From the NCBI RefSeq assembly GCF_000372725.1, contig NW_005201298.1, forward strand, positions 249,393 to 313,392: a stretch of 64,000 bases of DNA, given 5' to 3'. Made by a program: the position numbers and the translations under genes. Origin of the DNA: Emiliania huxleyi CCMP1516. Its lineage: Eukaryota. The notes beneath the pieces are model-generated. The model worked only from the letters and a program-made list of their open reading frames with translations, made no database searches and had not been told where the DNA came from. Each line of letters begins with the position of its first letter. Position 1 is the stretch's first letter. Of the stretch, positions 1-63,304 are shown piece by piece.

Positions 1-1795
<1,795 letters not shown>

Positions 1796-15067: not shown

Positions 15068-18000
15068 ATGTATATGCGACTTCACGCGAGCATCCTCGCC
15101 GCGTTCCACCTCCTCCGGCGCTGGCTCACGCGGGTCGTTGGCCCGCGCGCTGCGGCACTACTCCGCCACGTCCACGCTGCCACCGAGCCCCGCGCCGCTT
15201 CGATCGCTGGCCGGCTTGGCCGCATGTTTGTGCGGGTCATGGGACCGAGCGCCGCAGTGGCCGCTCATCACGTGCCCGAGGCGCCCGAGCGGGAGCACAG
15301 CGCGGAGCGGCTCGCTGCGCAGTCGCACCTTCGCCGGTCGATCATTCCGAGCACAGTCACGCGCCGGATCTCTGACGGGCGCTGCGACCCTCGCCGGAGC
15401 AGCGGCCTGCGTCGCCTCCGCCACTCTGAGCCGCCACTCGCCGCCGCCGCAGGCCAATCACGATTGGCGTCTGCTGCATGGCCAAGAAGGCCAAGTCGGG
15501 GCCGATGCTCGAGACGCTGGACCGACTGCAGGCCTTCCGCGGAGAGAGATCGCCGAGAGATCGCCGAGAGGCAGCCGAGCCGAGAGACGGCCGAGAGACA
15601 GCCGAGAGATAGCCGAGAGATAGCCGATAGATCGCCGGGAGATCGCCGAGAGATCGCCGAGAGATCGCCGAGAGATCGCCGAGAGATCGCCGAGAGATCG
15701 CCGAGAGATCGCCGAGAGGCAGCCGAGAGGCAGCCGAGCCGAGAGACGGCCGAGAGACAGCCGAGAGATAGCCGATAGATCGCCGGGAGATCGCCGAGAG
15801 ATCGCCGAGAGATAGCCGAGAGGTGGCCGAGAGACAGATGCAAGAGGACCGGCTGCAGGCCTTCCGCGCCGACGGGCACGCCGAGTTCGCGGTCGTGTCC
15901 TTCGACGAGCGCATGCTGCTCGAGGAGCCGGTCGAGTCGTGGCCCGTGTGCGAGGCGGGTTAACTAGTTATTAATTAGTTATCCGTTATTGAGTAGTGAC
16001 TGATTAGAATTCGTCGTGGCCCGTGTGCGAGGCGCTGATCGCCTTCCTTCTCAGCGGGTGAGTCAGTGATTAATTCAGTGATTAATTAGTGAATTAACTC
16101 CTCCTGGATTAGGCGCTGATCGCCTTCTTCTCCGCGGGGGAGTCAGTGATTAATTAGTGAATTAACTCCTCCTGGATTAGGCGCTGATCGCCTTCTTCTC
16201 GGCGGGCTTCCCGCTGCAAAAGGCGCAGGCGTACGCCACGCTCCGCAAGCCGTTCGTGTTCAACGACCTGCAGATGCAAGAGGCGCTCTTCGACCGGCGC
16301 CTGAATTAATCACTGCCGTCAATGATTAACGAGTCAATATCGCCGTTCATGAATTACTAAGGTGCTCTTCGACCGGCGCGCCATCTACGCAAAGCTCGAG
16401 GGGGTAGGGGTGCCCGTTCCGAAGCACGTCGTGCTCGAGCCGGGCAGCGCTGTGGTCGACGAGCAGGAGGACTACATCGAGGTGGACATGTCCGAGACAT
16501 GTCCGAGACATGTCCGAGACATGTCCATAGGAGGACTACATCGAGGTGGACGGCGCCAGGCTGCAGAAGCCAATCGTCGAGAAGCCAATCTCAGGCGAGG
16601 AGGAAGTGATTAGCTAATCAGCGAATTAACTGGTAGCAGACGCCAATCGTCGAGAAGCCAAGCTCAGGCGAGGACCACGACATCCGCATCTACTACCCGC
16701 GCTCCGCCGGCGGCGGCTCGAAGCGGCTCTTCCGCAAGGTTGGCGACAAGGCGTCCCAGTTCTACCCCGACGAGCATGAGTCGCGCGCCACGTCGGGCGA
16801 GGCGTACATCTACGAGGAGCTGCTTCAGACCGAGGGGACGGACGTAAAGGTGCACGCACACCAGGAGTACGCCCAGCACCGACCACCCGCAGTCACACCT
16901 CCATTCACAGCCTTGTTATTCACACATGGACAGGTGTACGCGGTCGGCCCGGAGTACGCGCACGCCGAGGCGCGCTAGCCGGCCGTCCTCGTTCGCACTC
17001 CTCCGTGTGAACGCATGCTCGTGTGGCGTCTGGTCAGGCGCGCAAGTCGCCGGTCGTGGACGGCAAGGTGATTCGCAACGCGCGCGGCAAGGAGCTGCGC
17101 TACCCGCTCATCCTCAACAACGACGAGAAGGAGATCGCGCGAAAGGTGGTCCTCGCCTTTGGCCAGACGCTGTGCGGGTTCGACCTGCTCCGATCGGAGG
17201 GCCGCTCGTACGTCTGCGACGTCAACGGCTGGTCCTTCGTCAAGGACTCGCACAAGTTCTGGGCCGACTCGGCCAACCTCCTCCGCCAGTACTGCCTGCA
17301 CGCCATCTGCGCGGGAGGTAGATGTCTGGACGAGAGACGCGGCCAGCCTCTGGCCAGCCTGCTCAGTCAGGATCTCTCGCCGGACCAATGTCGAGTGCTT
17401 GCCCGGCACGCCACGCCACGCCACCCCTGCAGCGCACACCGCGTGGAGACGCGCTCCTGCCGGCAGAAGGGCGTCTCTTCACAGCCGTTGCTGTGAACAG
17501 GCCCGCACCACGTGGAGAGGCACCCGCAAGGCGCGCCTCAGGTGCCGCCGCCCGACGCCGCCATTCAGCCGTCTGCCACTCCACAAGCAGACACCGCCCA
17601 CCGTCCCCTCCCCTGCACGCCTCGCAAGGTGCCGCCGCCCAACCGGACGATAAGAGACTCGGTGCTGCAAGACGTGGTGCCGCCCCGCGCCTCGCTGCAA
17701 GCGCCGACCGGCGCCGAGGAGTCGGAGCTGCTCTGCGTGATCGGGCTGACGAGGCACGGCGACCGGACGCCGAAGCAGAAGCTAAAGATGAAGACCACGG
17801 AGCCGCGCCTGCTCGCGCTGCTCGGCAAGAACAAGGACGCGCGCGCGGAGCTGAAGATCAAGAAGATCCGCGCCATGGAGGAGCTCACCCAGATCGTCTC
17901 GCGGCTTGTGGAGGAGAAGCTGCGCGCGGCGGACCCGTCCTCGGACAGGCACGAGGAGGACCTCGACAAGCTCCTCACGCTGACTGTGTGGTAGTAACTG

Positions 18001-21000
18001 CCGGTGCCTCCTCCTCCAGGTACGAGGAGGACCTCGACAAGCTCCTCACGGTGCAGCAGGTGCTGCAGTCGCACCCGTTCTCCGGCATCAACCGCAAGGT
18101 CCAGATCAAGCCCTCGAAGTGGGCTGCTGTACCGGAGGCGGGCTCAGCGGACGGCGGCGCCGCGCCCCCAGCCTCGCGCGAGGTCGCAGTAGAGGCGCTC
18201 TTCATCCTCAAGTGGGGAGGCGAGCTGTGAGCAGCGTCTCTTCACACCTGCAGCTGTGAACAGGCGCTCTTCATCCTCAAGTGGGGAGGCGAGCTGACGG
18301 CGCTCGGGGAGGCGCAGGCCGAGTACCTTGGCGCCAAGTTCCGCAACTCGCTCTACCCGGGGGACGAGGTTGGCGGCGGGGTGCTGCGGCTGCACTCCAC
18401 CTACAGGCACGACCTCAATCAATTAAGGGTCAGTTACGGTTGATGAGGGGTTAATTCAGAGTCACTCCACCTGCAGGCACGACCTCAAGATCTACTCCTC
18501 GGATGAGGGGCGCGTGCAGACGACGGCCGCCGCCTTCACCAAGGGCTTCCTCGACCTCGAGGGCGCCCTCCCCCCCATCCTCGCCTCACTCGTCTCCAAG
18601 GACAAGTCGGCGACGGCCATGCTCGACGACACGAACGAGCAGGGCCGCCTCGGCATGGACAGATCAAAGGCGGTCATCTCGCAGCTGCTCAACTGCCCGC
18701 AGACTACCGCAGGGGCCATCGCCGCGCAAGAGTCGTCCCGCCCCCCCTCGCCGAGCAGCAAGCAGCCGCGCGGACTCGAGCGCGGACTCGAGCATGGCCA
18801 GATCGTGGCGCAGGCATACCCCCCCCCACACATACCTCCCCCGCATCTCCCCCACATCTCCCCCACATCTCCCCCACATCTCCCCCACATCTCCCCCACA
18901 TCTCCCGCGCCAGGCGCCCTCGACGGCGGCGGAGGGCGGCCTCGCCTCCGACTCCCTCCTCTCCGCCTGGCTGAGCGAGAATGCAAAGGCGCCGCGCCAG
19001 GCGCTCGAGCGGCTGCACCAGCTAGTCGAGGAGCTCGAGCGGGAGCTACGCGGGGAGATATGGGGAGATGTGGGGAGATGTGGGGAGATGTGAATAGGAG
19101 CTCGTGCGGGAGCTACGCGCGAGGAGCAGCGCGGGCGGCGGCGCGTCGAGCATCGGCATCCTCGGGCTGCTAGTTCATAGTGAATCACTCATCGAGCAAT
19201 GCATTAATAGGCGCGTCGAGCATCGGCATCCCTCGAGTCCCTTCTCGCGACGTGGCTGTCTCGTCGGGCAAACTTTCCTCCAAGGTTGCGGCACTTGTTC
19301 ACAGCTAGAGGTGTGAAGAGACGATGTTCACAGGCCCTCTCTCCTCCAAGGTTGCGGCACCGCTGATGGTGAGGCTGTCTGCTCGCTGATAGTGAAGAGT
19401 GACCTCTCTCCTCCAAGGTTGCGGCACCGGCGAGGCATTCCGCAGCCAACGGCAAGACGCCGCACCTCCAGCTCGGCCTAAGGAAGGGTGAATTAGGGGC
19501 GAGTTGGGTGTGAGTTAGGCGAGACGCCGCACCTCCAGCTCGGCCGGTGGGCGCAGCTGCACAAGGACCTGTACAGCTCGCGCAAGGAAGTGTTTGACAC
19601 CTCAAAGGTGCCAGACATCTACGACAATGCGCTGTACGACATGGTCCACAACGAGCACCTCGGGCTGCAGGCCCTAGCCGCGCCGGCTCCGAGAAGGGTG
19701 CGAGAGGGCTCCGAGGCGGTCCCGTCACTTCGGTGCGTTGCTGCAGGCTTTGCCGCGCTTGTTCCGCGCCTCGCGCACGCTCGCGTCGTACGTGGTGCCG
19801 CAGGAGTACGGCATCGAGCCGGAGGACAAGGTGACGGTCGGCCTGCAGATCGCGTGGCAGATGCTCGCCAAGCTGCTGCAGGACATGCTTGAGAACGGAG
19901 GAGCGGTTGCCTAGTAATGAGCTGCTGAGGAGGATCGCCCACCTGCCGTAGGACATGCTTGCCGGCATGGACGCAGAACGACACATGGAGGAGACGCGTG
20001 CCTCCGACCGCCCCCCCCCCCTGACATGTCCGAGACATGTCCGAGACATGTCCATAGGAGCGCATGCCTCCGACGCCCCCCTCCGAGGAGCCTTCCGAGA
20101 GCCTTCCGCTCGAGCCTTCTTCGAGAGCCTTCCCCGTAGGAGCGCGCGCACGAGCTGGACCATACCTCCCCCACATCTCCCCCACATCTCCCCCACATCT
20201 CCCCCACATCTCCTCCCCCACATCTCCCCCACATCTCCCCCACATCTCCCCCACACCTCCCCCACACCTCCCCCACATCTCCCCCACATCTCCCCCACAT
20301 CTCCCCCCTGCCTCCCCCGCATCTCCCCGTAGGAGCGCGTGCACGAGCTCGACCCGTCCGCCTTCACCGACGTCAAGTCGAGCTCGCGGCATGTCCGCAC
20401 GCGCCTCTACTTCACGTCCGAGGCGCACATCCTCTCCCTCTTCAGCGACATGTCCGAGACATGTCCGAGACATGTCCATAGGTCCGAGTCGCACCTCCTC
20501 TCCCTCTTCAGCGACATGTCCGAGACATGTCCGAGACATGTCCATAGGTCCGAGTCGCACATCCTCTCCCTCTTCAGCGACATGTCCGAGACATGTCCGA
20601 GACATGTCCATAGGTCCGAGTCGCACATCCTCTCCCTCTTCAACGTGCTGCGCTACGGCCACGAGGTGCTCGCCGCCACCCAGGGGGAGAGGGCGAGCCG
20701 CGGCGTGCAGTGCATCTTCAGCGACGAGGCGCAGATTCCCCGAGATTCCCCGAGATTCCCCGAGATTACCCGAGATTACGGCGTGCAGTGCATCGCAAGC
20801 GACGAGGCGCTCGTCAAGCTCGAGAAGCTCGGCTTCCCCGAGATTCCCCGAGATTACCCGAGATTACCCGAGATTGCGAGAGTACCCGAGAGTACCCGAG
20901 ATCAGGCGCGCGTCAAGTTTGAGAAGCTCGACGTCGGCTACCTCTCGCACATCGTCTTCCGCGTGCTCCACAAGAAGAACGCAGACCCGCAGGTGCCCTC

Positions 21001-21492
21001 CTCGTACGCGGTGCAGGTGCACAGCCGGTGAAGTAGATCTCGTCAGTCGAGCACTGAGCGAGCGCCTGTGTTGACTGACGTGCCCATGACGCGTGGTCGA
21101 CGTCTCGTCAGGTGCTCGTCTCGCAGGGCGTCAACCAGAACATGTCCGCGCCGTCGCGAGGCGGGCCGTGCCAGGCCGAGTGGCACGAGAGGCCGGAGCT
21201 GCTGCCGAGCGACATGTTCATCTCCTCGCGCGACGACCTCACCCTCGAGGACGTCGACTGCTTCTTCTCGTACTTCCTGCGCAGCACGCCGCTCGGACAG
21301 ACCAAGGCGGCGCCGCAGCGGCAGAGCAGCACTCCGTCGGCTAGCAGCACGACACTTAGCTCGGCCCTCGCGTCGGAGAGCTCTATGCAGGCGCGCGCCT
21401 CGCGCGCGCGCCGCGCTTCGGGGCCGCTCGTGCCGGAAGGGGAGGCGACGCCGTGCGTGGTGTCGCGGCGCTGCGCCGGGTCGGAGAGCTGA
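15068..21492 (+). CDS. VIP1: Inositol hexakisphosphate / diphosphoinositol-pentakisphosphate kinase (VIP1/PPIP5K), many exons; start uncertain
   Basis: [135 protein letters not shown]. Confidence 0.95.
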
Positions 21493-30558: not shown

Positions 30559-32398
30559 TCACTGACTCGGTCCCAGCGGCGCCAGCCAAGGGGAGAGATG
30601 CCCCTCCGCCATCTCCCAGACGCGGCGGCCAAACGCCTCGTCGCGGGCGGCGGGCGCGCACGCGACGGGCGCGCACCGCTCGAGGTAGGCGCCGCGCAGC
30701 GATGAGACCTGTTCACAGCCAGCGGCGTGAAGAGACGCCGTTTACAGCAGTCTGGCAGTGTCTAGGAAGGAGACGTCGTCGCTGCCGGCAAAGACGACTG
30801 TCTAGGAAGTGTCTAGGAAGTGTCTAGAGGTGTCTAGGAAGCGTCTAGGGGCGGGGAGGAGACGTTGTCGCTGCCGGCGGCGAAGACGGTCGTCGCGGCC
30901 CCGTCGGCGAGGGGCGGCTGGAGGAAGCGGAAGAGGGGCGAGGCGACGGCGTAGAGCAACCGGACGGGCGCGGGGAAGTTGCGAGTGACGTCGGTGAGTG
31001 CGTTGGCCTAAGACTTGTCCTCAGGCTGACTGGACCAGCCCTCCCTCCTCGCGTCACGGCGGTGAGGGCGCCGGCCGGGTGCAAGCTCACACACACCACG
31101 CCGCTCGCGCCCTCGCGCCGCTGCAGCTCCGCCGTCAGGGCGACCTACTCCCGGCGCGACCTCGGCGCGTTCTCGGCGTGCTCCCGCGCGTCTGCAGCTC
31201 AGCAGTCCGGGCCCGGCCTGCGCGAGCTTTGAGCGCGCGTACGCGGGGAAGAGCGAGTAGGAGGCCTCGCTCATCGGGTCGGCGAGCAAGGTGGCGGGGT
31301 CTCCGTAGTGGTGCAGACAGGAGGCGACCTGCGAGCATGGGCTCGGGCGATCTCGGGAGATCTCGGGCGATCTCGGGAGAACTCGGGTGATCTGAGGTCA
31401 TCCCCGGGTGATCCCGGGAGATCTCGGGAGATCTCGGGAGATCTCGGGAGATCTCGGGAGATCTCGGAAGATCTCGGGTCCGTGGCGGCGACCGAGACGA
31501 CGCGGCCTCGCGAGCGGCGCAGCAGCGGCAGCAGCAGGCGGGCGAGGAGGTGGTGGCCTAAGGTCATCAGCTCGCTGAGAACTCATCGACTAGTTCATAC
31601 GCAGCAGCAGCAGGGCGAGAGAGGTCGTGGCCGAGGGCGTGGCAGGCGAGGTTGGCTTCCCAGCCGTCGCGCGTCACACGCCTCTCTGGGTGCATCGCCC
31701 CCGCGTTGCAGATGAGCGCGTCGCACCTCCCGCCGGTAGCGAGGAGCTGCGCGGCGAAGGCTCGCACGGAGGCGCAGCTCTCCAGGTCGAGAGCGAGGAA
31801 GAGCGCGCGTTCGGGCGGCGCACCCGAGGCGCTGCAGGCGGCGCGGCACGCGGCGCGGCCTCGGGCCTGCTCAGCAAAGTAGCTCGTTGATGGACACACA
31901 GCTTGCAAGGCGGCGAGGCAGCGCGCCTCGCTGCGGCAGGCCAATATAACACATAATAAATGTAATATAGCGCGCCTCGCTGCGGCAGGCAAAGATGACT
32001 GTCGCGCCGCGCTCCAGCAGCTGCTCCGCCGTCGCGAGCCCGAGGCCGGCGGAGCTGCCCGTCACCACGACTGTACGGCCAGTGAGTGGCGGAAGCGGAG
32101 GCAGAGGGATGCGGACGAGCAGGCGGTGGGTCGCGAGGCAGGCGAGCCCACCCGCGGCGCCCAGCAGGGCCTCGTGCCCAACTGCGGCCGGCGCCACACG
32201 AGAGAGGTACAGCAACGAGCCCGTGGCCACGACGGCGACCGCGGCCCGCCTGGCGCCGGCCTCGCCCGAGACGGCGCTAAGCAGGAAGACGCCCAGCGCG
32301 TAGAGAAATGCGAGGAGGCAGGCGGCTGCTGCTGGCTTCGCGGCGACGCCGAAGAACGTCACGGCGAGGGCGAGGGCAACGACGAAGTCGAGCTGCAT
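30559..32398 (-). CDS. Short-chain dehydrogenase/reductase (retinol-dehydrogenase-like) with N-terminal TM segments, multi-exon
   Basis: VVVTGSSAGLG, LDLESCASVRAFA, LICNAG, LGHHLL, YARSKLAQ (YxxxK), VSLHP, GAYLERC. Confidence 0.9.
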
Positions 32399-32686
32399 CG
32401 GTCGGGCAAGGCTGGGGAGAATTTTACCATGCAAGCCCTATCACAGCAGACTGGCTCGGACTGGAGGACCACTGGAGAAGTGGATTCGGGCCTGGAACAA
32501 AGAATTCTTTACCTAGGTGGATATCATTTGGTGGCCGCGTTGGGTAGCGAGGATTGGTGTGACGCGATCCACGCAGGCGTGTTTTCTGACGGCCGACCGT
32601 CAGTGCACGGAGTTGCCCCTTCTCCGACTGCCCCGGCTAGTTCCCGAGGTCGCGCGGGGCTGACCCCTGGCCCTGCGTCCCCCAAA

Positions 32687-34019: not shown

Positions 34020-37000
34020 ATGTCCGGCCTACGCGTGCGCACGCCCAAGAAGGCGCGCGCGCGCCCTCCAGTGCCGCTGCCACGCTGCCGACCGCGCGCG
34101 GGCCTCGGTCGCTCACCGCCGCCCGCCCTCTCCCGCAGGCAAAGGACAACTACGACGAGGCGATCGAGGAGTACGAGCGGGAGCAGAACCCCAAGGCGAT
34201 CAAGAATCGCGTGCGCAAGGCGCAAAAGGCGGCGGAGCAGGCGCTCGTGACGGGCGACAAGATGGCGCGCTGCGGCGCGGCGCTCAAGCTGCTCGGCTTG
34301 CGCGACGACGCGTACTGGTTCCAGGAGCCGGTGCCGGTGGGCGAGGTGCCCGACTACCTGGACATCGTCGAGGAGCCGATGGACTTCCGCACCATCGCCG
34401 GCCGCCTCGCCGGCGGCGAGTACGGCGACGACGCGCTCGCGTTTGCGTCGGACGTGCGGAAGGTCTTTACGAACGCCGTCAAGTACAACTGGTCGCCCGA
34501 CCACCCGTGCAACATCGCTGCGCGGGCGGGGCTGCGCGAGTTCGAGCAGCTCTTCGCGCGCGCGAACGGCAACGGCTCCGCCCCCAAGCCGCCCCCGCCC
34601 GCCGCCCAGCCGCACAAGAAGCGCCACCGCGATGGCGGAGGAGGAGCCGTGGCCGGCAGCAGCAGCGGCGCGTCGGCGGCGGCGGTCGTCGGCGGCGGCG
34701 GCGGGGCGTCGGCGGCGGGCGGGGGCGGAGGCGGAGGGGGCGTCAAGCGTGCGCGCATGCGCGGCTCTGCCTCCGAGGCTGGCTCGGCGGACAGAGACCG
34801 CGAGCCGACCGGGCGCCGTCCACGAACCTTCTCGGAACCTTCCGGTAGGCTGGGTCGGCGGACAGAGACCGCGAGCTCATCGCGGGTCTGGGCGAGTACC
34901 TCGTGTCGTGCGGCGGCGCGGAGGGGCTGGTGGACGGCTGGTACACCCGGACGGAGGTCCGCAAGGGAGGGGGCACGGCCGGCACGTTCGACACGTACTT
35001 CTTCACGCCCGCCGGGAAGCGCTTCCGATCTCGCGCCGAGATCGCGCGGTTCTTCCAGCTCGAGGCGGCGCCGGCGAAGTCTGCCAAGTCGCAGGACGCC
35101 GAGGAGAGGAAGGCGCTGAAGAGCGCCGAGCGCGAGGCGAAGAAGCAGCAGAAGGAGGAAGCTGCGGCGGCGCGCCAGGCGCAGCTCGACGCGGAGAGGG
35201 CGCTGCGAGAGCGGTGCGCAGTCCGCCGGCGAGGCGCTGTTGGCTGGTCAGTGTGGGTAGCGGCGCATTGTGAATGAACAGGTACCCCGTCCCCGACGAG
35301 CGGCTGGCGGAGGAGGAGCCGCACGAGCCTCCTCTCGGCCCTCGCCCGACACCGCTGCCAGCAGGAACCGGCGCCGTGCCCGCCTCGGCTGTCGGCGACT
35401 TGCTGCAGGAGACGCGTCCCAGTCCGCTCCCCAGACACCGGGCAGGCCCTTCCCCAGACACCGGACAGGCCCTTCCCCAGACACCGGGCAGTCCCTTCCC
35501 CAGACACCGGACAGGCCCTTCCCCAGACACCGGACAGGCCCTTCCCCAGACACCGGGCAGGCCCTTCCCCAGACACCGGACAGGCCCTTCCCCAGACACC
35601 GGACAGGCCCTTCCCCAGACACCGGACAGGCCCTTGCCCAGACACCGGACAGCCCTCTCGGCCTGCTGCAGGTTTGCGACTTCCTGCGCGCACTCGGCCC
35701 CCAGCTGCAGCTGCCCTCGTACTCGCCTTCGGAGCTCGCGGCGGCACTGGTCGCGTCGGAGGGCGAGGCTGATGAATAGCTGAGTAACAGCTGAGTAACA
35801 GCCAGCGAATTAATGACAGGTCGAGTCGGAGGGCGAGCCGAACCCGAAGCTCGCTGACCTGACGCAGGCTTGCACTCTTGTGTGGTAGGACAGTGTATTG
35901 CAGCATCTCATAGCCGGCTTGGCGCAGGCTTGCACTCTGCCTTGCAGCAGCGATCATAGCTGGCCGGCCTGCCGCAGGCGCTGCTGCAGCTCGTGCTGAC
36001 CGACAAGTCGCTCGGCGAGTGGTGGGGCGTGCGGGAGGCGCCGAACGGGCCAAAGGCGGCCTTTGCGAGGGCGTCGTCCGACTCGAAGAAGGTCAAGTGG
36101 TGGGAGGCGGACGCGAAGCCGCTGCTCAAGGTCGACCTCGAGGCGATCCTCGCGTCGAGCGAGCCGACGTCGCGCACTCGCCGCTGGGTGGCGCAGCTCG
36201 AGACGGTTGCTCCGATGCGCACAAACACCGGCGTCCCGATCCGGCAAGCGCTGGTTGCGGCGAGGGCCATCTCCTCCGACGGCGAGGTGCGGAGGTACCT
36301 CGACCGCGCAATCTCGCACTGGAAGGGCAACGCCGCGGGCACGACAAAGTTCGCCGCTCTTTGGCTCGCGGCCCAGGTCCGGCGGAGCCGGCCGCAGATC
36401 TTCACGGCGGAGGGGATGGCGGCGGTCGAGGCGGAGGAGGACGGCGGCGTGGACACGTCCTTGGACACGTCCGAGGACGTGCCCCCGCCCGAGGAGGAGG
36501 AGGACGGCGCCTCGGAGCTCGCGCCGTCGGAGGTTGCTAATTAATATTAATTAGCTATTAATTAGCCTCGGAGCTCGCGCCGTCGGAGGTTGCTCCGTCG
36601 GAGTTAATTAATAGCTCATTTTTAGCTCTGTGATCGTTAGTAGCTCATTGCTTGATTACAGGCTGCTCCTTCGGAGCTAATTAATAGCTCATTACTAGCT
36701 CATTGATCGCTCATTACTAGCTCACTGCTTGATTACAGGCTGCTCCGTCGGAGCTAATTGATAGCTCATTACTAGCTCATTGATCGCTCGTTAGTAGCTC
36801 ATTGCTTGATTACAGGCTGCCCCCTCGGAGCTAGTTGATAGCTCATTACTAGCTCATTGATCGCTCATTAGTAGCTCATTGCTTGATTACAGGCTGCCCC
36901 CTCGGAGCTAGTTGATAGCTCATTACTAGCTCATTAATCGCTCATTATAGTTCATTGCTTGATTACAGGCTGCCCCCTCGGAGCTGCCGGACGAGCTCGA

Positions 37001-40000
37001 GGAGGAGGACAAGGGCGAGGAGGGCGAGGCGGGCGGCGAGGAGGGCGACGAGGGCGACGAGGGCGGCGAGGAGATCCAGGCGACCGACGAGATCGACGGG
37101 CGGCTCTGGACGGGCGCTGCCGCGGAGGGGTGGGTGGTGCGCGCCAAGGGCAAGACGGGCCAGAAGTGGGGCAACTGGATCTACGTCGGCCCCTCCGGCA
37201 CAAAGTACCACTCCAAGGTTGCCGCCTTCGAGGCGCGAGACGCGGAGGCGCACCGCGCGGCCGACACGGACTCCGTCGCCCTCTCGCGCCTCAAGAGCGA
37301 GGCGGGGCCGCCAGAGGCGCTCGTCGGCGCGCGCGTGTCCGTGTTGTGGTCGGAGGAGGGCGGGGCGGGGGCGTGGTACCCGGGGCAGCTGTGGGCCTTC
37401 GACGCGGCGACGCGCGAGTACCACATCCTCTACGACGACAACTCGGAGGAGCGGCTCGACCTCACAAAGGTCAAGCACCGGCTCGTCTACCAGCTGCAGC
37501 CGCCGCACCTGCTGCGCTCGCGCAACCCGCCCGCGCCGGAGGTGGGGCCGACGTCACCGCCTACTCGTGGCCGCCTACTAGTGATTACTAATTATGAATA
37601 TGAATTACAGGTGAGCGACGTCACCGCCTACTCGTGGCCGCCGCTGCTCGCCGCGGTCGCGTTGCGCCTCCTCCGCCACTGGGACCCGGCGTGCGTCATC
37701 GACGACACGCCCCCCGACCCACACGCCCCACCCGGCCAACCTCACGGCGACAGCGCGGGCGGCGCTGCGCCGTCCGCCTCTTCGCCCGCCGAGCTTGCGC
37801 CGCGCCTGCAGCCAGCGCAGCCCTCGGCTGGCGGCGCCTCCGCACGCAAGAGCGACCCCATGGAGGCAGCTCGGCTCGCGCAGTGCCGCGACACGTCCGG
37901 GACACGTCCGGGACATGTCCGGGACATGTCCGAACAGGTGGAGGCCGCGGCCCCGGCCTCGACCTCGCCGGCCTGCGGCGGCGGCGCGGCTGTCGCCAGC
38001 CCCGGCGGCGGCGGCGGCTTGGCCGTGTCCGTGCAGGCCGCAGGTCGGGCGAGCGCAGAGGGAGGAGGCTGCCCCGACCCCGCCCCCTCGCCGCGCGCGC
38101 GCGTCAAGCGGCAAGGCTCGAGAGTAGCCGAGAGGAGCCGAGAGGAGCCGAGAGTGGCCGAGGTGAGCCGAGGTGAGCCGAGGTGAGGCCGAGGTGAGGC
38201 CGAGAGGAGCCGAGAGGAGCCGAGAGTGGCCGAGAGTGGCCGAGAGTGACCGCCCTCCAAAGCCAACAACGCGTTCCTGCGGCTCTTCCGCCCCTCTAGG
38301 CTCGCTCGGCGGCCTGCCGCCCCGCTCCCACCTCTACTGCATCTCCTCTCCACCTCGGCTCCACCTCCGCCCCTCCAGGTTCGCTCGACGGCCTGCTGCC
38401 AACCTCGCCCCCCTCGAAGCCGCTCTCGTCCGGCGGTGACGCCTCCGCCCTCGCGCTGCCCTCGGCCTGCGGCGGAGCGAGCCAGCTGGAGCCCGCCATC
38501 CGCGCGCTGCTGGGCCAGTCGCCGTCGCTCGCCCACGAGGTCTACAGCCGGCTGCCGCCGCTGCAGAAGCTGGGCTTGCTGCGCGTGCTCGTCGACGGCG
38601 CGTGCGACTCGCCGCACACCGCCAAGGCGGTGGACGAGGCGATGGCGAGGCGGAGGGGGGTGCTGGAGCGTGAGGAGGAGGCGGAGAAGGAGAAGAGGCG
38701 CGAGACGCGCACGCTGCGCGACGAGGCGCGGCACGCGCTGCGCGAGCAGCTAGCAGAGCAGCGCGAGGCGGCGGGCGAGGAGGGGGAGCAGCTCTTGCCG
38801 GCCGAGGTGAGTGAGGTTGCGGTTAGCCTCGAGGTGCAGAAGCGGCAGGAGGCGCTAGCGTGCGGCGGGCAGGTGGAGGCCCTCTCGCGCGAGGCGCTTC
38901 CTTCACGACTCCCTCCCCATCTCTCATTCCTCCATGGCAGGTGGAGGTGCTGTCGCGCGAGGCGCTGCAGCAGGCGGAGTCCGACCTCTCGCCATCGAGC
39001 TCGAGTTGTTAATTAATCAGTTAGGTAATCATAATTAATTAATAGGCGGAGTCCGACCTCGCTGTCGAGCTCGAGCTGCTAATTAATCAGTTAGGTAATC
39101 ATTTAATTAATTAATAGGCGGAGTCCGACCTCGCTGTCGAGCTCGAGTTGTTAATTAATTAGTTAGGTAATCATAATTAATTAATAGGCGGAGTCCGACC
39201 TCGCTGTCGAGCTCGAGTTGTTAATTAATTAGTTAGGTAATCATTTAATTAATTATTAGGCGGAGTCCGACCTCGCTGTCGAGCTCGAGCTGCTAATTAA
39301 TCAGTTAGGTAATCATTTAATTAATTAATAGGCGGAGTCCGACCTCGCTGTCGAGCTCGAGTTGTTAATTAATTAGTTAGGTAATCATTATTAATTATTA
39401 GGCGGAGTCCGACCTCGCTGTCGAGCTCGAGCTGCAGGCCGCGAACGGGATCGACTCCGACGGACGCGACTTCTCGGCCGCCGATCGGGAGTGGCACCGT
39501 CAAAGAGTCACGGCTCAATGCGCGACTCTCGCTCTCCATGAGTTAGGCCGCCGACTTGGAGGGCATCGTTGCGCGGCGCGACCTGATCAAGCACCGGCGG
39601 GACACCTTTGGCCCAGCGCGCGACGCGGCGCAGTAGAGGGCTTGCGAGGGCCGCGCAGTCTCGCGCAATCTCGCCCACTCTCGCCTCGCTTGTGGCGTGT
39701 AGGCGCAGGAGGGTCTGCGGGCCGCAGCCTCGTCCGGGGACGCCGCGGTGATGGAGGCGCGAGATGTGGGGAGATATGGGGAGATATGGGGAGATATGAG
39801 GACGCCGCGGTGATGGAGGCGCGAGATGTGGGGAGATATGGGGAGATATGGGGAGATATGAGGACGCCGCGGTGATGGAGGCGCGAGATGTGGGGAGGTA
39901 GCGGGAGATATGGGGAGATATGGGGAGATATGAGGACACCGCGGTGATGGAGGCGCGAGATAGGGGGAGATAGGGGGAGAGATAGGGGGAGATCGCGGTG

Positions 40001-40983
40001 ATGGAGGCGCGCGCCGCGCAGGGCCGGATTCGGTGAGAGGATGCCGAGTCACCGCCCTCGCTCTGCGGTTCCCTTAGGCTGCGCTCGAGGCGGCGCGTGC
40101 GGCCGCCCTCGAGGGGGATTGCGACGAGGACGGGATCGGGCCGGGCGGGCGGTGGGTGGCGGCGGAGACGCGGGACGTGTACACCGCGCTGCACGAGATG
40201 CACAAGTACCGCGACGAGAGGGTCGCCGAGGGGAGGCGCCAGCTCGAGCTCTCACAGACCATCGTCCGCACCGCGCCGCTCGGGCGAGACCGGTATGGCC
40301 GGCGGCACTGGCTCGTACAGCCGCTTGAGGCGCGGGACAATCGCCCCCGACGCACCTCGGCCGCACCTCGGCTGCACCTCGGCTGCATCTCGGCCGCACC
40401 TCGGCTGCACCTCGGCTGCATCTCGGCCGCACCTCGGCTGCACCTCGGCTGCACCTCGGCTGCACCTCGGCTGCACCTCGGCCGCACCTCGGCTGCACCT
40501 CGGCTGCACCTCGGCTGCACCTCGGCTGCACCTCGGCTGTACCTCGGCTGCACCTCGGCCGCACCTCGGCTGCACCTCGGCTGCACCTCGGCCGCACCTC
40601 GGCTGCACCTCGGCTGCACCTCGGCCGCACCTCGGCTGCACCTCGGACGCACCTCGGCCGCACCTCGGCTGCACCTCGGCCGCACCTCGGCTGCACGTCG
40701 GGGCTAGGAACCGCGGGACCAGCCGCACGTCTGGTGCGAGCCGCGCTCGAGCGAGCTCGTCGGCGGCATCGTCGAGCCGCCGCGCGAGGCGAGCAGGGCA
40801 GCAGACGGCGGCGAGTCGCGGCCGTGCGGCAAGAGGGACTGGCAACACTTTGTGGGGGAGTCCGCCTGTGCCGCGCTCGCCGCGTCGCTCGACGAGCGCG
40901 GCGAGCGGGAGAGCCACTTGCGCGCCTCCCTCGAGCGCACCCTCCGCTCGCGCCAGCTACAGCGCCTGGCGGCCTCCGGCTGA
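34020..40983 (+). CDS. Bromodomain-MBD-DDT-Tudor-WHIM chromatin protein (BAZ/ACF-like), many exons
   Basis: Bromo [75 protein letters not shown]; Tudor-like [25 protein letters not shown] motifs [34 protein letters not shown]. Confidence 0.85.
36533..36968 (+). repeat. Intronic tandem array of ~60-75 bp units (exon-start copy, AT-rich filler, TTACAG)
   Basis: GCTGC(T/C)CC.TCGGAGCTA.TT.ATAGCTCATT...GATTACAG repeated about 5 times. Confidence 0.9.
38974..39401 (+). repeat. Intronic tandem array of six 70-72 bp units
   Basis: Units start at 38974, 39046, 39118, 39188, 39260 and 39332 with GCGGAGTCCGACCTC..; each ends in TAG; coding resumes at 39402. Confidence 0.95.
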
Positions 40984-41000
40984 GAGTGGGGGGGGGGGGG

Positions 41001-44045: not shown

Positions 44046-44093
<48 letters not shown>

Positions 44094-47643: not shown

Positions 47644-49805
<2,162 letters not shown>

Positions 49806-55707: not shown

Positions 55708-56327
55708 GGGTTGGATGGTCCGGACCTGCCCGGCATTTGGGTACCACTTTGCCCACGCTGCAGTCGCGCTGCCAAGGCCTGCTAGCATCTTTGGTACCAC
55801 GCGTGCCGTCGTCCTCTGTCGTCCTCTGTCGTCCTACGTAGAGATAATGTACAATTGCAATACGGTATCTTGTAGTACGGCCTTATAGCTAGTAGTGCAG
55901 TTACTGCACACTGCACTCGCATGAACTGCCTTGTTAAACATAAAGAGACGAAGGCGCTCACACTCGAAACGCTGCGATCGCGGTGTCGGCAGCGTGACGA
56001 AGCCGCCCACAAAACACGCAAGCACACACACAGGCACAAGCACATACACACAGGCGTCTCCATAGGTGTGCTATGAATCAGCAGCCAGACCTGGCCCATC
56101 TCTCAAACGTCCAGCCTCCCCCCCCCGCCCCCGCCCCGGGCTACCCCCCCCCCCCCCTCCCCCTCCTTCCGTACGCCGCCCGTCTCTGGCACCCCCCCTT
56201 GCCAGCGGTGGCCCGGCTCGGCCGCCCTGCTGGCACACGCACCCCCTCCCCGCCCGCGCCTCTCTCCGGAGGGACACAACTGCGGCGCGTCGACGAAGCT
56301 GCGAGATTCCCCGAGATTGCCCCGCGA

Positions 56328-59300
56328 CTACCGGAGGACGAACTGCGACGTGTCGACGAGGCACGCCGCCTGGACGGCCGCCGGAGTCAGCGGCGCATCG
56401 ACGTGCAGCGGAGGCTGCTTGGACGCGTCTCCCGCGTCGGCGCGCGCCGCGAGGATCGCGGCGCGTGCGGCGAGGAAGGCGGCGGCGGCGAGCGCCATCG
56501 GCGGCTCCGCAGACGCCTTGGAGTGCAGCGTCGCGCCCGGGGCCGGGTTGGGCGCGCGCGGCAGGAAGGAGACGTTGAGCTCAAGGGGGATGTCGTGCAC
56601 AGCCGGCACCTGTGCTCCCCCCGCGCCGAGCGTGGGGAATCGGAGGTGTCTCGGAGGTGTCTCGGAGGTGTCTCGGAGGTGTCTCGGAGGTGTCTCGGAG
56701 GTGTCTCGGAGGTGTCTGGGAGGTGTCTGGGAGGTGTCTCGGAGGTGTCTTGGAGGTGTCTCGGAGGTGTCTCGGAGGTGTCTCGGAGGTGTCTCGGAGG
56801 TGTCTCGGAGGTGTCTCGGAGGTGCACCTTGTACTCCCACGTGCCGAGCGTCGTCGGCGCGCCGCTCGGCGAGTGGGAGACGACCTCGGGGAAGAGAGAG
56901 CAACGCCGGTTAATGACAGGGAATGATGGAGAGGAATCGCTCGGCGGGCGGGAGACGGCCTCGGAGAAGAAGAGGCCGAGCGCCATGACGAAGCCCCCCT
57001 CGACTTGCCCGAGGTCGATCTCCGGGTTGAGGGGCGTCCCCTGGTCCATGAGCAGGTCGGCGCGCAGGATGCAGGTCTCGCCAGACAGCGCGTCGATCTC
57101 GACCTCGCAGATTAATCAGCACTACTCAGCACTACTCGGCACTGGGTCACCGACGGCGGGTCGCGCTCTCCGCCTCGCAGCACGCCACGCCCGAGGTTGC
57201 GTAGTCGAACTTGGGCACCCCCTCGGGCGCGGCCCCGCCGAACCAGCCGCTCGCCGCGAGGGACACGCCTACTCACACCCTCCCCCTTCCCCGCGGGCGC
57301 CTTTCCCTCCACCCCAGCCGCTCCCCCCACGAGGGAGTCGCCCGCGTCGGTCGCCGCTTTGACTGTGGCCTCCCACGCGCCCTCCCCCGCCGCGCCAGCC
57401 GCCGGCCGGAAGGGGAGCAGGCGAGCGTTGAGCGTCTCCGCCGCGTCCAGCACCGCCTTGGCGACGCACTCCGGGGTGTGAAGGGAGGGGCTGGTCAGGC
57501 GCTAGTCAAGCGTCCAGCAGCGCGCCTTGACGACGCACTCCGAGGTGGCAGAGCCGCCCGTGTCGGCCGAGCCGGGCGTGGCGAGCGACGAGGTGTCCGA
57601 CACAGACACGCCGCCGAGCGGGCAGCCGAGGGCGAAGGCGGCCGCCTGCGCCGCCTTAGTGTGGATGCCCTGCCCTAGCTCGCACCCTCCGTGGGCCAGC
57701 CGGACGGACCCGTCCGCCAGCACGCCGAGCGAGCAGCCCTCCTTGTACGCGCCTCCGTTGTCCTCGATGCCGTACTTGACGGGGACCATCCTCAGCCCGC
57801 GCTTGCGCCACCGGTTGGAGCGGTTGAACGCCTCCACCTGCTCACGCCAACCAATGCGAATCAATGCTGGCCAATGCGAATCCATGCCGAGGAATGCGAA
57901 TCCATTGTGAGTAATGCGAGTCCATGGCGAGTAATGCGAGTCAATGCGATTGCAATAGGTTGGGGCGCGGTTTTCGAGCCCCCGCCTGCTCGCGCCGCGC
58001 CGCAACCTCCCACCGCGCCTTCGCGGACTGCCACATCGCCGGCAGGTTCCAGTTGAAGCCGTTCTCGCCCACGGTGACGCCGCAGAGGGCCGCGTCCCCC
58101 GTGGCGTACAGGTTGGCCTCGCGCACCGCGTCCGCCGGCAAGCCGACCGCCTCGGCCGCAGCCTCCATCGCCAACTCGTGCAGCGGGATGGTCTGCACGA
58201 CGCCGGGAGCTCGGCACGCGGTGCTGCCTACGTGTGGGACGAGGCGAGATTGCGCGAGACTGCCCGAGACTGCACCACCCCCCCGGGGAAGCGCGCGGCG
58301 CTGCCTACGACGCCGGAGTTGTAGAACGAGCCGTGCACCGCGAAGTCGTCGGCGCGGTACGCGTTGTCCGCCCAGCAGACTCCCATCGTCAGGTCGCCTG
58401 TCGAGCACCAATTAATTAATTACCAATTTTAATTAATTAATTAATTATAATCAATACTCCCATCGTCAGGTCGCCTATCGAGCACCAATTGACTGACTGT
58501 TCGTCCTTCGCCACGAATCAGAGCAGGCGCCCGTCGTCAGGTCGCCTGTCGAGCACCAATAATAATAAATAATAATAATATAATATAATATAACTCCCGT
58601 CGTCAGGTCACCTGCGCCGCCGTCGACGACGCCAGAGTCGAACGCCGCGGTGAGCTCGATTGACGAGACGACGCCGCCTGTCGGGACATGTCGCGGACAT
58701 GTCCCGGACGTGTCGCGGCGCTGCGGGGAGCTCGAGAGGGGATGGTACGCCACCCTGGTCCACCGCGAGCCGGAAGGAGCCCTCCATCGGCGGCCGGCCG
58801 CCCGTCGACGCCATGTCGTCCGAACGGTCGTTGTGCAGCCGCACGGGGCGGCCGTGCTTGGCGGCGGCGACGGCCGCGGCGATGGCCGTCGGGAGGTGCG
58901 CGTTGAGCTTGCCGCCGTACGCGCCGCCGATACGGCGCACGCGCACGTCCACCGTGGCGAGGGGGAGGCCGAGCGCGCCTAATCTCGGGTAATCTCCGGT
59001 AACCTCGGGCAATCTCGCCGTCCACCGTGGCGAGGGGGAGGCCGAGCGCACCCGCCACCGCCGTCTGCGTGCGGGTTGGGTTCTGGTTGGCGCAGGTGAT
59101 GGAGAGGCCGCCTCCCTCGACCTACAATAATGAACGGGCTCCTCTTAACGAACTGATCGGTATCGGTGATGGAGAGGCAGCCTCCGTCGACCGGCAGGGC
59201 GAGCGCGGTGTTGGTCTCAAGGTAGAAGTGGCGCTGGCCTGGTATGGACCAGTGAACCCATTAGTAATCAGCGTCTTGCGGGTCACCATAGGAGGACACA

Positions 59301-62300
59301 GTGGCGCTGGCCCCCGATGCGGAGCTTGCCCTCCACGGCGGCCTTGCCCTCCGCCGCCGCGCGAGACCACCACTCGCCCGCCTAAGTTCCAATTCAACCA
59401 GTCAGCCCCCAGTGTGTGACCGGCTGGACTCACCTCCTTGTCTGAGTGAACGCTCGCTCGCCTGCCGCCCGCGCACAATGCTCGAGTGGTGATCGTCCTC
59501 CTTCACCTCCTGCGCGCCGCCGTCGCCTCCGCCTCCGCCTCCGCCTCCGCCTCCGCCTCCGCCTCCGCCCTCGCCTCCGCCTCCGCCTCCGCCCTCGCCT
59601 CCGCCTCCGCCTCCGCCCTCGCCTCCGCCTCCGCCTCCGCCGCCTCCGCCCGCCGCCTTCGCCTTGCGCGTCTCCTCCTGCAGCCGCTCGAGCCGGATCC
59701 CGTTCCGCCGCGCGAACCCAGAGGAGCGGAGCTGCTCGAAGGCCGCCGCCACACGCGCGGCGTCGGGCGGACTCCGGCGCGAGGTGGGAGGGGGCGGGGG
59801 GGGGGCTTGCTTGAGGAGCCCCGCCGAGTGGCTGAGCCTGAGCACGGCCAGCTGCGCGCCTAGTCGGCCGGCCACAGCTCGCTCAACGCGCGAACGGCCG
59901 AAGCGTTGACGAGGCGTGAGCGGATGGCTGCGCGCCACGCCGCGCGTGCGAGAGGGAGTCGGCGAGGACGACGGCGACCGGCGCGCCGACGCATGGGAGC
60001 GGCGACCCGACCGGGTGGAGGTAGAAGGGGTAGCAGTTCGAGTCGGCGGCGGCGGTGGCGTTGGCGGCGGGGTTCGGGAAGTCCGCCGCGCTGACGACGT
60101 CGACGACGCCGGGGGAGGCGAGGGTGGCGCTCCAGTCTGCCCCGCAGAAGGAAGCGCCGGCAGAGCCGTCCGGCGCGAGGACGAAGGCGCCTAGTATGGA
60201 GTGGTGAGCTGAGCGCTCCTCGGTCGGCGGCAGAGCCGTCCGGCGCGAGGACGAAGGCGCCTAGTATGGAGTGGTGAGCTGAGCGCTCCTCGGTCGGCGG
60301 CAGAGCCGTCCGGCGCGAGGACGAAAGCGCCGCAGAGCTCGCCCGCGACGGCTGGCTCGTCGGAGGAGTAGAGCGCCTCGCCCGACGCCTGAGTAGCGCA
60401 CTCCTTCCTGCACTCGTGATGAATACTGCATGAGTAGACCGCCCTCCCCCCGACGCCTGCAGCAGCGAAGTGAGCTTGGGCAGCGGCAGCGAGACGGGCG
60501 CCTACAGGAAAGGTCCAGGAAAGGTCCAAGAAAGGTCTAGGAAAGTGAGCTTTGGGCAGCGGCAGGGAGACGGGCGCCAGCGACGCGTCGCTCACGCCGA
60601 TCGACTGGGTGCCGCACGAGACGGGCCTGCTCTCAGGAAGTAGCCTCGTCATTGACTAGCCATTCCTTGTGAAAGGGCCGCACGAGAGACGGGCCGGTCG
60701 GCGGCGGCGGCGAGCGAGCCGGCGACGGCGGACGCGAGGCGGGGGGGGAGGGGCGAGCCCTGCGCGGAGAGGAGCAGCTTGTACGCAAACGAGGCGACGA
60801 GGGAGAGGCGGTACTCGTGCGGCGCGAGGTGGCCGATGTCCGAGGCGGAGCCCGCGTCCGACTCGACGGCCTTGGCCGCCTGCTGAGGGACGCGTCCATG
60901 AGAGTGACTTCCTTCACAGGGAGGTACACGGACCGGCCTTGGCCGCCTGCTGCACCAGCTCGGCGACGAAGCCGCGCATCGCGGCCGCGTCGGATGGGGC
61001 GGCACCTACGGACGACCTTGCTAATCAATTAATTATTAATTAATTGATTAATTGATTAATTGATTATTCATCAGGGCGGCGCCTACGGGTGATCTCGCGG
61101 CGAGACTGCGACGAGACTGTCCGAGGTTGCACCGCGACCGATGCTCGGCGCCGACGAGACGGGACGCGGCGGAGGGTGGGACCGCCCACGTGCCGCTCGA
61201 GACGAGGCCGCCAAAGGCTCCGCCCACCGCCGCGACGGCGCCGCCCTTGCCTGCGGGGCATGTCCACGACAGTCCGGGACATGGCCCAGCCGCCGGCCGG
61301 CGACATGCCCCCCCGCCAGTGCGCAGCGCGAGGCAGCAATTGAGCAGCGCGTGGCTGTTGGCGTGGCGCGACGAGACCTTGTCGGCGAAGCAGGCGGCGA
61401 GCGAGCCCGCGCGGCCGCCCGCCGACGCGAGAGGGAGGCGCAGCGCCACGATGAGCAGCGAGGCTGCGGAGCGAGGGCCGCAGGAGAGGTACCTGAGGGA
61501 GGTGTCGCGGAGGTGTCTCGGAGGTGTCTCGGAGGTGTCTCGAGGACCGCAGGAGAGGTGCCTGACTCAGCAGCGCGAATGTGGTGAGTGGAGTGGGGGC
61601 GTGGGCCGCGGTGCGAGGCCCAGACAGCGGTACTCGGACACGCTCACTGTGCGGAGGCCGCCGCCGCCGCCGCCACGGCGAAGGCCGGTGCGGTCGATGA
61701 CCGTGAGAGAGGCACCGACGCCAACGAGGAGCACCGCCACGTCGGAGGGGAGGGCCGGGTGGGCTGCGGCGAGGGCAAGGTTGCCAGCCCACGACCCGAC
61801 GGCGCGCACCTGAAGGAGGTGTCTCGGAAGTGCCTCGGAAGTGCCTCGGAAATGTCTCGGAAGTGCCTCGGAAGTGCCTCGGAAATGTCTCGGAAGTGCC
61901 TCGGAAGTGCCTCGGAAGTGCCTCGGAGTTGTCTCGGAAAGTGCCTCGGAAGTGCCTCGGAAGTGCCTCGGAAATGTCTCGGAAGTGCCTCGGAGGTGTC
62001 TCGGAAGTGCCTCGGAAGTGTCTCGGAAGTGTCTCGGAGGTGTCTCGGAAGTGCCTCGGAAGTTGTCTCGGAAGTGCCTCGGAAGTGCCTCGGAGGTGTC
62101 TCGGAAATGTCTCGGAAGTGTCTCGGAAGTGTCTCGGAAGTGTCTCGGAAGTGTCTCGGAGGCTGGCCGCCCACGAGCCCTCTGCGCGCACCTGAGTCGT
62201 CGCCACGCGGCCGAGATGGCGGGCGAGGGCTGCGGCGGCGGGTGCGGCGGCGCCTCCGCGCTGCTCGGAGGCCCAGGGCGGCCCCCCTCCCCTCCCGTCC

Positions 62301-63271: not shown

Positions 63272-63304
<33 letters not shown>

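What the first reader, a model, noticed from the sequence alone, without database searches (positions are those of the whole stretch)
15520..15868. Introns built from a duplicated exon junction plus filler: candidate ongoing intron-birth mechanism
Seen: the 22-mer GACCG(A/G)CTGCAG|GCCTTCCGCG occurs at both ends (15520-15541 and 15847-15868) of intron 15532-15858. The first copy supplies the GC donor, the second supplies the AG acceptor, and an 11-mer satellite fills the gap. The same design, where the intron start copies the next exon's start, recurs in BiP, VIP1, P450, SDR, the BAZ-like gene, the ankyrin gene and the aldehyde oxidase. Established: duplication of an AG|GY motif and repair of staggered breaks are proposed intron-gain routes. 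Inference: this genome makes introns routinely this way, which would also explain the excess of GC donors, since donors are borrowed from GC-rich codons.
Basis: partly seen in the sequence, partly recalled or inferred. Interest (0 to 1): 0.85.

Follow-up and report, generated by a model that had tools for sequence, protein, structure and literature searches.

The report
Algal introns carrying long birth scars
In several genes of the bloom-forming alga Emiliania huxleyi, most introns are bracketed by two copies of the same short stretch of the gene with repetitive filler between them, a scar that likely records how each intron was made and would explain why this alga's introns so often start with GC instead of the usual GT.

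Summary
Observation confirmed and general. The 22/23-nt copy brackets intron 15532-15858 of a VIP1/PPIP5K gene whose tested exon matches E. huxleyi at 100%. Transcript-derived proteins show all 24 VIP1 introns removed. Of 45 introns so confirmed in three genes, 23 carry an ungapped junction copy, against 0 of 1980 mismatched pairs. Copies are 13-39 nt; copy plus filler is about 70 nt. Fillers fall into shared families in both orientations and often bring their own AG. Different units stack on one junction and copy intronic bases, so copying is at DNA level. A conspecific metagenome contig has an extra 66-nt unit with a perfect 25-nt copy, but all 15 intron positions compared are shared: new positions arising now are not shown. 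Donor GC share (0.68) equals that of coding sequence after AG (0.67). The P450 example is not confirmed. Best reading: insertion at staggered cuts with a long target duplication, filtered by splicing. It works like Introners and Daphnia break-repair introns but fails their short-TSD and TIR tests. New variant; not found in ten literature searches; two key papers were unavailable.

The parts
15519..15541 (+). First junction copy (13 nt exon end + 10 nt intron start); holds the CAG|GC donor
15532..15858 (+). Focal intron, 327 nt (189 nt in L001), GC-AG most likely
15542..15845 (+). Filler, 304 nt, mostly an 11-nt satellite (15544-15834, 25.5 copies)
15846..15868 (+). Second junction copy; holds the CAG acceptor and the start of the next exon
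15068..21492 (+). VIP1/PPIP5K gene, 24 introns confirmed by transcript-derived proteins, 14 with an ungapped copy scoring >=12
15955..16180 (+). Compound intron: one upstream-type unit (77 nt) plus two tandem downstream-type units; L001 has one unit fewer
16829..16853 (+). Empty site: L001 carries here an extra 66-nt unit (25-nt perfect copy spanning the donor of intron 16850-16933 plus 41-nt AT-rich filler)
17472..17500 (+). 29-nt filler module ending in the acceptor AG (sense copy 1)
18235..18263 (+). Same module (sense copy 2) in the 69-nt intron 18195-18263 with a perfect 35-nt copy; L001 has this unit twice
19294..19323 (-). Same module inserted antisense, its end again abutting the junction copy
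19991..20332 (+). Three different units stacked on one junction; the first copies the start of the second (intronic bases), the third copies the exon start; each ends in TAG
30560..32400 (-). SDR gene; introns read by eye, 4 repeat pairs, among them a 49-nt unit stacked on a donor, and the 29-nt module at 30709-30737
34020..40985 (+). Bromodomain/MBD/DDT (BAZ-like) gene; 8 introns confirmed, more from a 59% relative; tandem unit arrays at 36587-36985 and 38972-39431
47860..49780 (-).
56328..64000 (-). Aldehyde-oxidase/xanthine-dehydrogenase-type gene; 13 introns confirmed, 18 repeat pairs
56263..56360 (-). 63-nt unit whose copy spans the stop codon; the transcript proteins read through the first copy, so it needs no splicing
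1..1795 (-). HSP70 (BiP-like) gene, 5' part; units at 53 (72 nt) and 290 (66 nt, perfect 22-nt copy, hairpin filler); introns read by eye

Best explanation
These introns are spliced insertions of about 70 nt made of a 13-39-nt copy of the gene's own junction plus filler, and they likely arise when a staggered DNA break is repaired with a piece of filler copied from existing intron-type sequence. Step 1 (inferred): staggered cutting and fill-in duplicate the target and trap a filler, in either orientation. Step 2 (shown for the end state): the first copy gives the donor (G|GC, G|GT or G|GA taken from coding sequence) and the acceptor comes either from an AG in the second copy or from a YAG at the filler's end, so splicing restores the message. 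Step 3 (inferred): insertions in coding sequence survive only if spliceable and at least about 64 nt long; those that land on an existing junction or past the stop survive anyway and can be shorter. Step 4 (shown as differences between haplotypes, mechanism inferred): the long copies let whole units gain or lose copies and satellites slip. The GC excess would follow because donors are sampled from 70%-GC coding sequence by a spliceosome that accepts GC as readily as GT. About 0.75 for birth as insertion with target duplication; about 0.45 that the enzymes are those of break repair and not a retro-element or transposase.
For: Junction copies in 23 of 45 confirmed introns against 0 of 1980 null pairs. 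Sharp copy/filler borders, filler GC 0.47 against 0.71, unit length median 70 (IQR 67-75) in 52 hand-curated units. Filler is not an in-register copy of flanking sequence (0.29). Stacked units copy intronic bases, so the template of the copy is DNA or pre-mRNA (also 31920, 35863, 36509). A 66-nt unit with 25 of 25 identical copies is present in L001 and absent from the window at about 1.5% divergence; the NCBI model P0001 also reads on from that donor without it. A 63-nt unit of the same build spans a stop codon and needs no splicing. Units under 64 nt (49, 56, 60, 62, 63) are all stacked, tandem or unspliced, while the shortest confirmed intron is 64. 23 of 1326 filler pairs score above the shuffled maximum, 5 of them in opposite orientation. 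AG at the filler's 3' border in 25 of 52 against 10.6 expected. Donor statistics as for coding sequence. Independent assemblies show the same copies, so they are no assembly artefact. PMC3174169 (passages) reports no detectable intron conservation between E. huxleyi and other eukaryotes; in one short stretch of a distant relative 0 of 3 positions match.
Against: No intron position differs between the window and L001/L002 (15 of 15 shared); the segregating unit sits on an old donor and is not polarised by an outgroup. Gain and loss of tandem units can refresh copy identity, so the 23 of 52 perfect copies do not prove youth, and trimming by score favours perfect copies. 17 of 45 introns show no direct copy even with gaps (three of these are compound introns with internal copies), and six predicted introns in two other genes show none (coordinates guessed by eye). 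Units are nearly absent from 37 kb outside the six intron-rich genes (borders drawn after seeing the repeats), which random breaks do not predict. Fillers with a fixed end in both orientations and a weak AG excess on the opposite strand (17 of 52 against 11.0, P 0.03) fit a defined mobile element as well. The copies are longer than the 4-12 bp in Daphnia. The copy/filler anticorrelation (rho -0.72) is partly arithmetic, and the search was limited to 40-110 nt. The sample is three genes in one window; there is no read-level evidence.
Confidence: 0.6

Rival explanations
1. Target-primed reverse transcription: a non-LTR retro-element enzyme nicks the target and primes on the 3' end (YAG) of excised intron RNA or a SINE-like RNA, leaving a 5'-truncated piece with a long variable TSD.
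For: Long variable copies; filler ends in AG sharing G or AG with the target; one 29-nt module ends at the copy border in sense and antisense; short tandem repeats would fit template slippage (own knowledge).
Against: No poly(A) tails seen in 52 fillers; several fillers are fold-back hairpins (12 of 52 with an inverted repeat at P<=0.05); near absence outside intron-rich genes; no partner element was looked for, as no genome was held; no Rfam match in the window.
Confidence: 0.2
2. Remodelling of old introns: the positions are old, and copy-plus-filler units were added at existing junctions, where they are harmless, later replacing the old intron sequence.
For: Stacking is common and the only segregating novel unit is on an old donor; 15 of 15 positions shared between haplotypes; units keep to intron-rich genes.
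Against: Many introns are one clean unit with nothing older beside it (18195, 19141, 19452, 59051); replacing an old intron precisely needs a second step with no repeat to guide it (inference); 40 of 45 downstream exons begin GC or GT and donors lack any intronic consensus; published lack of position conservation (which rests on gene models of doubtful quality).
Confidence: 0.12
3. Ordinary DNA-transposon Introners (MITE-like) that carry the acceptor and co-opt the donor from the TSD.
For: Shared filler families in both orientations with their own AG; five E. huxleyi Introner families are listed in the supplement of PMC9860276, two of mean length 70.
Against: Copies 13-39 nt and variable against 3-9 bp described; terminal inverted repeats of 10 nt or more in only 2 of 52; that supplement calls TSD/TIR '?' for four families and N/N for one.
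Confidence: 0.06
4. Pure tandem duplication of a 64-80-nt exon segment holding AG|GY, whose middle was later overwritten by satellites.
For: In a subset the duplicated AG|GY gives both sites, the focal intron among them; route described in PMC3443670 (passages).
Against: Filler-to-flank identity is at background; the segregating unit already has a 41-nt foreign filler between perfect copies; in 12 of 52 units the target lacks the A of the AG at the filler border.
Confidence: 0.02

Closest known systems
[quoted passage not shown]
   Same: Insert between direct repeats of the target; variation within a species; repeated events at one site.
   Different: Daphnia repeats are 4-12 bp (33 cases in that data set); here 13-39 nt, in over half of the introns tested, with total added length near 70 nt and recurring filler families.
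Introners/ILEs that carry the 3' site and co-opt the 5' site from the TSD: Symbiodinium, Polarella classes 4/5 and 6/8/10, Aureococcus (bioRxiv 10.1101/2020.10.14.339549, part 1 of 4; PMC9860276, passages)
   Same: Donor recruited from duplicated gene sequence, many GC and GA donors, both orientations, families of related introns.
   Different: Those have fixed 4- or 8-nt TSDs and mostly TIRs; here the copy is long and variable, TIRs are rare, fillers are satellites or AT-rich quasi-palindromes, and different units stack on one junction.
E. huxleyi Introner families 1-5 in Supplementary Table 6 of PMC9860276 (rows read)
   Same: Same species; 653 elements, 82% in genes; two families of mean length 70.
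   Different: TSD and TIR left undetermined or called absent; the main text has no occurrence of Emiliania. Whether they are these filler families was not tested (their sequences were not seen).
Tandem genomic duplication of an AGGT-containing exon segment (PMC3443670, passages)
   Same: A duplicated AG|GY gives donor and acceptor with no change to the message.
   Different: Only about a third of each unit is copy; the rest is foreign filler.
GC-AG majority in E. huxleyi (PMC4028052, passages)
   Same: GC donors 56-65% there, 28 of 45 (62%) here; GA about 4% there, 4 of 45 here.
   Different: That paper ascribes the shift to genomic GC content; the passages seen do not mention junction copies.

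Membership tests
DNA-transposon Introners (IE/ILE) | Related intron sequences at unrelated sites | tested here: met
   23 of 1326 filler pairs above shuffled maximum, across genes; one module at four sites; similarity is partial and repeat-based, not end to end
DNA-transposon Introners (IE/ILE) | Target duplication supplies a splice site | tested here: met
DNA-transposon Introners (IE/ILE) | Short TSD (3-9 bp) of fixed length | tested here: not met
   13-39 nt, SD 6.4, in 52 units; definition
DNA-transposon Introners (IE/ILE) | Terminal inverted repeats | tested here: not met
   2 of 52 with >=10 nt, 4 of 52 with >=5 nt; many published families also lack TIRs
DNA-transposon Introners (IE/ILE) | Insertion in both orientations | tested here: met
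DNA-transposon Introners (IE/ILE) | Presence/absence of intron positions among isolates | tested here: inconclusive
   0 of 15 positions differ, one novel unit on an old donor
DNA-transposon Introners (IE/ILE) | Autonomous partner; nucleosome-linker bias | not testable with these tools
   no genome held
Break-repair intron gain (Daphnia type) | Direct repeat of adjacent gene sequence at the two ends | tested here: met
   longer than the 4-12 bp reported
Break-repair intron gain (Daphnia type) | Insert unrelated to a mobile family | tested here: inconclusive
   some fillers have no partner in the window, others recur with a fixed end
Break-repair intron gain (Daphnia type) | Derived allele segregating in the species | tested here: inconclusive
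   one unit, unpolarised, not a new position
Break-repair intron gain (Daphnia type) | Dependence on end-joining enzymes | not testable with these tools
   needs experiment
Tandem genomic duplication | Whole intron is a copy of flanking exon | tested here: not met
   in-register identity 0.29
Tandem genomic duplication | Duplicated AG|GY gives both splice sites | tested here: met
   for a subset, the focal intron included
Non-LTR target-primed insertion (features recalled, from no call) | Variable, long TSD | tested here: met
Non-LTR target-primed insertion (features recalled, from no call) | Fixed 3' end with variable 5' truncation | tested here: inconclusive
   one module of four copies fits; too few members
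Non-LTR target-primed insertion (features recalled, from no call) | Autonomous element sharing the 3' end | not testable with these tools
   no genome held

The most novel reading that the evidence does not exclude
E. huxleyi, and perhaps haptophytes widely, has rebuilt most of its introns through a still-active process without a dedicated transposon: the 3' ends of existing introns are written into new G|GY sites with a long target duplication, to a total of about 70 nt, and stacked units are removed one after another by recursive splicing. Introns would then seed introns at a rate visible within one species.
Probability: 0.2. Interest if true: 0.9.

Novelty: new variant of a known kind. Interest (0 to 1): 0.72.

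Why it matters
How new introns arise is an open question, because most gained introns show no trace of their origin (PMC3443670, passages). Here over half of the introns tested in a much-studied, polymorphic species keep a long, countable scar, and a unit differs between haplotypes 1.5% apart. With existing strain genomes this makes rate, direction and mechanism of intron birth testable. It offers a mechanistic account of the GC-donor majority that has so far been put down to base composition. It also has a practical side: public gene models of this species translate the intronic copies as duplicated peptides (P0001 against P0133), so its annotation is likely to be wrong at many such junctions.

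Tried and rejected
No whole genome was held, so nothing genome-wide was measured, and no reads were laid on the locus. Assembly artefact rejected: L001/L002 and the NCBI model show the same copies. Collapse of repeats in assembly as the source of the 'spliced' proteins rejected: copy-free introns are removed too. Conversion from spliced mRNA (aborted intron loss) rejected for stacked units, whose copies include intronic bases; not excluded for single one-sided units. Pure tandem duplication rejected. General TIRs rejected. A filler satellite motif had 0 matches in viral contigs; Rfam had 0 matches in the window. The combined count of 34 of 45 is not used: satellite self-matches inflate it. Dropped before the count of 45: two aligner calls in a Gly-rich stretch (P0148), two for P0154 (an in-frame 108-nt gap and a tail), and all introns known only from 59-63% relatives or by eye. 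Literature: ten searches listed no paper describing these copies; the 2013 E. huxleyi genome paper and the 2016 Introner paper were not held. I recall, from no call, that the former notes 10-11-bp repeats in introns, and its supplement may bear on novelty. The supplement file of PMC9860276 was cut when stored. PMC2784329 (passages) and PMC12130899 (passages) had nothing on junction copies; PMC3488318 and PMC11282704 were read in passages only. Three of four answered look-ups of earlier findings gave nothing relevant.

Full report
1. Observation. Between them lies an 11-nt satellite of 25.5 copies. The host gene is a VIP1/PPIP5K: one exon is 100% identical to E. huxleyi CCMP1516 EMIHUDRAFT_427613 and the full protein has PPIP5K2_N and His_Phos_2 domains. 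No whole genome was held, so all counts below come from this window and three fetched loci.

2. Are the introns real? The protein cluster holds proteins read from contigs of 3.6-4.0 kb, too short for the 6.4-kb gene, and one labelled as an MMETSP transcript; I take them as transcript-derived. A spliced aligner placed P0133 on the window with 1126 of 1129 residues identical and 24 introns, the focal one included; P0121 gave the same 24. The same method confirmed 13 introns in the aldehyde-oxidase-type gene and 8 in the bromodomain/MBD/DDT gene, after dropping four aligner calls in low-complexity or terminal stretches. For the focal intron the proteins cannot fix the junction within the copy: GC-AG and a GA-AG 12 nt upstream both work. 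In 14 of 23 copy-bearing introns, amino-acid differences between the copies do narrow the junction, for instance to four positions around a GC donor at 16283 and at 19452.

3. More than chance. Scoring each intron's donor context against its own acceptor context, 23 of 45 reach 12 or more without gaps; 0 of 1980 mismatched pairs do (maximum 11). With gaps, 28 of 45 pass the 99th percentile. A window-wide scan for non-satellite repeat pairs 40-110 nt apart gave 64 pairs in 26.6 kb of six intron-rich genes (arrays counted more than once) against 0-3 in ten shuffles, and 12 in the other 37.4 kb, which by eye are mostly coding repeats or low complexity, plus one true unit at a stop codon. The gene borders were drawn after seeing the repeats. 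The P450 has no such unit.

4. Anatomy. In 52 hand-curated units (arrays once; focal unit outside the size range), the copy is 13-39 nt (mean 25), the unit length has median 70 and IQR 67-75, and filler GC is 0.47 against 0.71 in the copies. 27 of 45 confirmed introns are 64-80 nt and none is shorter than 64; most of the longer ones are stacks of units or expanded satellites. The copy may lie after, before or across the junction. AG stands at the filler's 3' border in 25 of 52 units against 10.6 expected; in 12 the target lacks the A, so the filler supplies it, and in two of these no donor follows. Fillers recur: 23 of 1326 pairs beat the shuffled maximum, 5 in opposite orientation, and a 29-nt module occurs three times as an intron's 3' end and once antisense with the same end at the copy border. 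Terminal inverted repeats are rare (2 of 52 at 10 nt or more), 12 of 52 fillers hold an internal inverted repeat, and fillers do not continue the exon copy in register.

5. Stacking and variation. At 19991-20332 three different units follow each other; the first copies the start of the second, which is intronic. Units stacked on donors at 31920, 35863 and 36509 also copy intronic bases and are 49-60 nt. A 63-nt unit spans the stop codon of the oxidase gene and needs no splicing. So the unit is a product of mutation at DNA level, not of splicing alone (inference). Two metagenome contigs of a near-identical genotype (L001, 54 mismatches in 3682 aligned; L002) share all 15 intron positions they cover (13 in L001, the last cut by the contig end; 2 in L002). 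They differ in content: the focal intron is 189 nt, one array has a unit fewer, two introns have a unit more, one donor is GT where the window has GC, and a new 66-nt unit with 25 of 25 identical copies sits on the donor of intron 16850. The NCBI model lacks that unit too, which favours gain, but there is no outgroup.

6. GC donors. Donors are 28 GC, 13 GT, 4 GA, in line with 56-65% GC in PMC4028052 (passages). The donor dinucleotide equals the start of the next exon in 33 of 45; positions +3 to +7 show no U1-type consensus; GC/(GC+GT) is 0.68 among donors and 0.67 after AG in the coding sequence of these genes (0.79 after G alone). Borrowing thus accounts for the ratio if the spliceosome treats GC and GT alike. 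Nine donors differ GT/GC from the exon copy, five one way and four the other, so donors also drift after birth.

7. Mechanism. Best: staggered break, fill-in and capture of filler copied from intron-type sequence, then selection for spliceable units of at least about 64 nt, then gain and loss of units through the long copies (0.6). Shown: the end state, the splicing, the copying of intronic bases, the haplotype differences. Inferred: the break, the filler source, the enzymes. Rivals: target-primed copying of intron 3' ends (0.2), remodelling of old positions (0.12), MITE-type Introners (0.06), pure tandem duplication (0.02). Unexplained under all: why units keep to certain genes, and why unconstrained units are also near 50-77 nt.

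8. Known systems. It works like Introners that co-opt the donor from a TSD and like Daphnia break-repair introns, but fails the short fixed TSD and TIR tests, and its copies are about three times longer than Daphnia's. An automated survey lists five E. huxleyi Introner families with TSD/TIR undetermined or absent (supplement rows). PMC3174169 reports no detectable conservation of E. huxleyi intron positions with other eukaryotes (passages); in L003, a relative at 79% identity, one window intron is absent and two boundaries lie where the window has none. L003 also has tandem arrays of exon end plus donor (period about 151, 4.6 copies) and of 103-nt units ending at an acceptor.

9. Verdict. A real, spliced and abundant feature; a new variant of intron gain by target duplication; not found in ten searches of the held library, with the species' genome paper and the 2016 Introner paper unseen. 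'Ongoing' is shown for units, not for new positions. Interest 0.72.

Noticed in passing
window 23780-23900 (-) and L002 about 3200-3300: The P450 reading frame shifts in the window but is open in L002, which has a 20-nt tandem copy and a further small indel here: a broken allele or an assembly error in the window.
   Followed up: partly
window 19270-19417: The intronic copy keeps the residues found in P0121, while the window's exon has two others: the exonic copy has diverged or the junction has slid inside the copy.
   Followed up: partly
L003 2793-3194 and 3353-4072: A distant relative has arrays of 103-nt units before an acceptor and of about 151-nt exon-end-plus-donor units with AT-rich filler, a hint that junction-copy arrays are not confined to this species.
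   Followed up: partly
P0001, P0137, P0145, P0153 (NCBI models): Public models translate intronic copies or read into introns, giving duplicated or spurious peptides compared with transcript-derived proteins.
   Followed up: partly
window 19882-19951 and 37542-37610: P0127 and P0154 end by reading into these introns (the first has a GA donor): retention, or mis-assembly through the copy.
   Followed up: no
window 290-377 (-): The filler of this 66-nt HSP70 intron is a near-perfect hairpin with terminal arms of at least 12 nt, so it would offer TAG in either orientation.
   Followed up: partly
window 43470-47280 (+) and 50910-55500 (+): An Argonaute-like gene (named by eye, not scanned) and a receptor-like gene have a few predicted introns of 60-100 nt with GY donors but no junction copy; several other long ORFs have no introns.
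   Followed up: partly
L001 110-2490; L002 5537-5690: The flanks break synteny with the window within about 1 kb upstream of VIP1 and at 26102, although the gene itself is 98.5% identical.
   Followed up: no
window 12267-12385: A 32-nt repeat pair 87 nt apart near an unannotated minus-strand gene may be one more unit.
   Followed up: no
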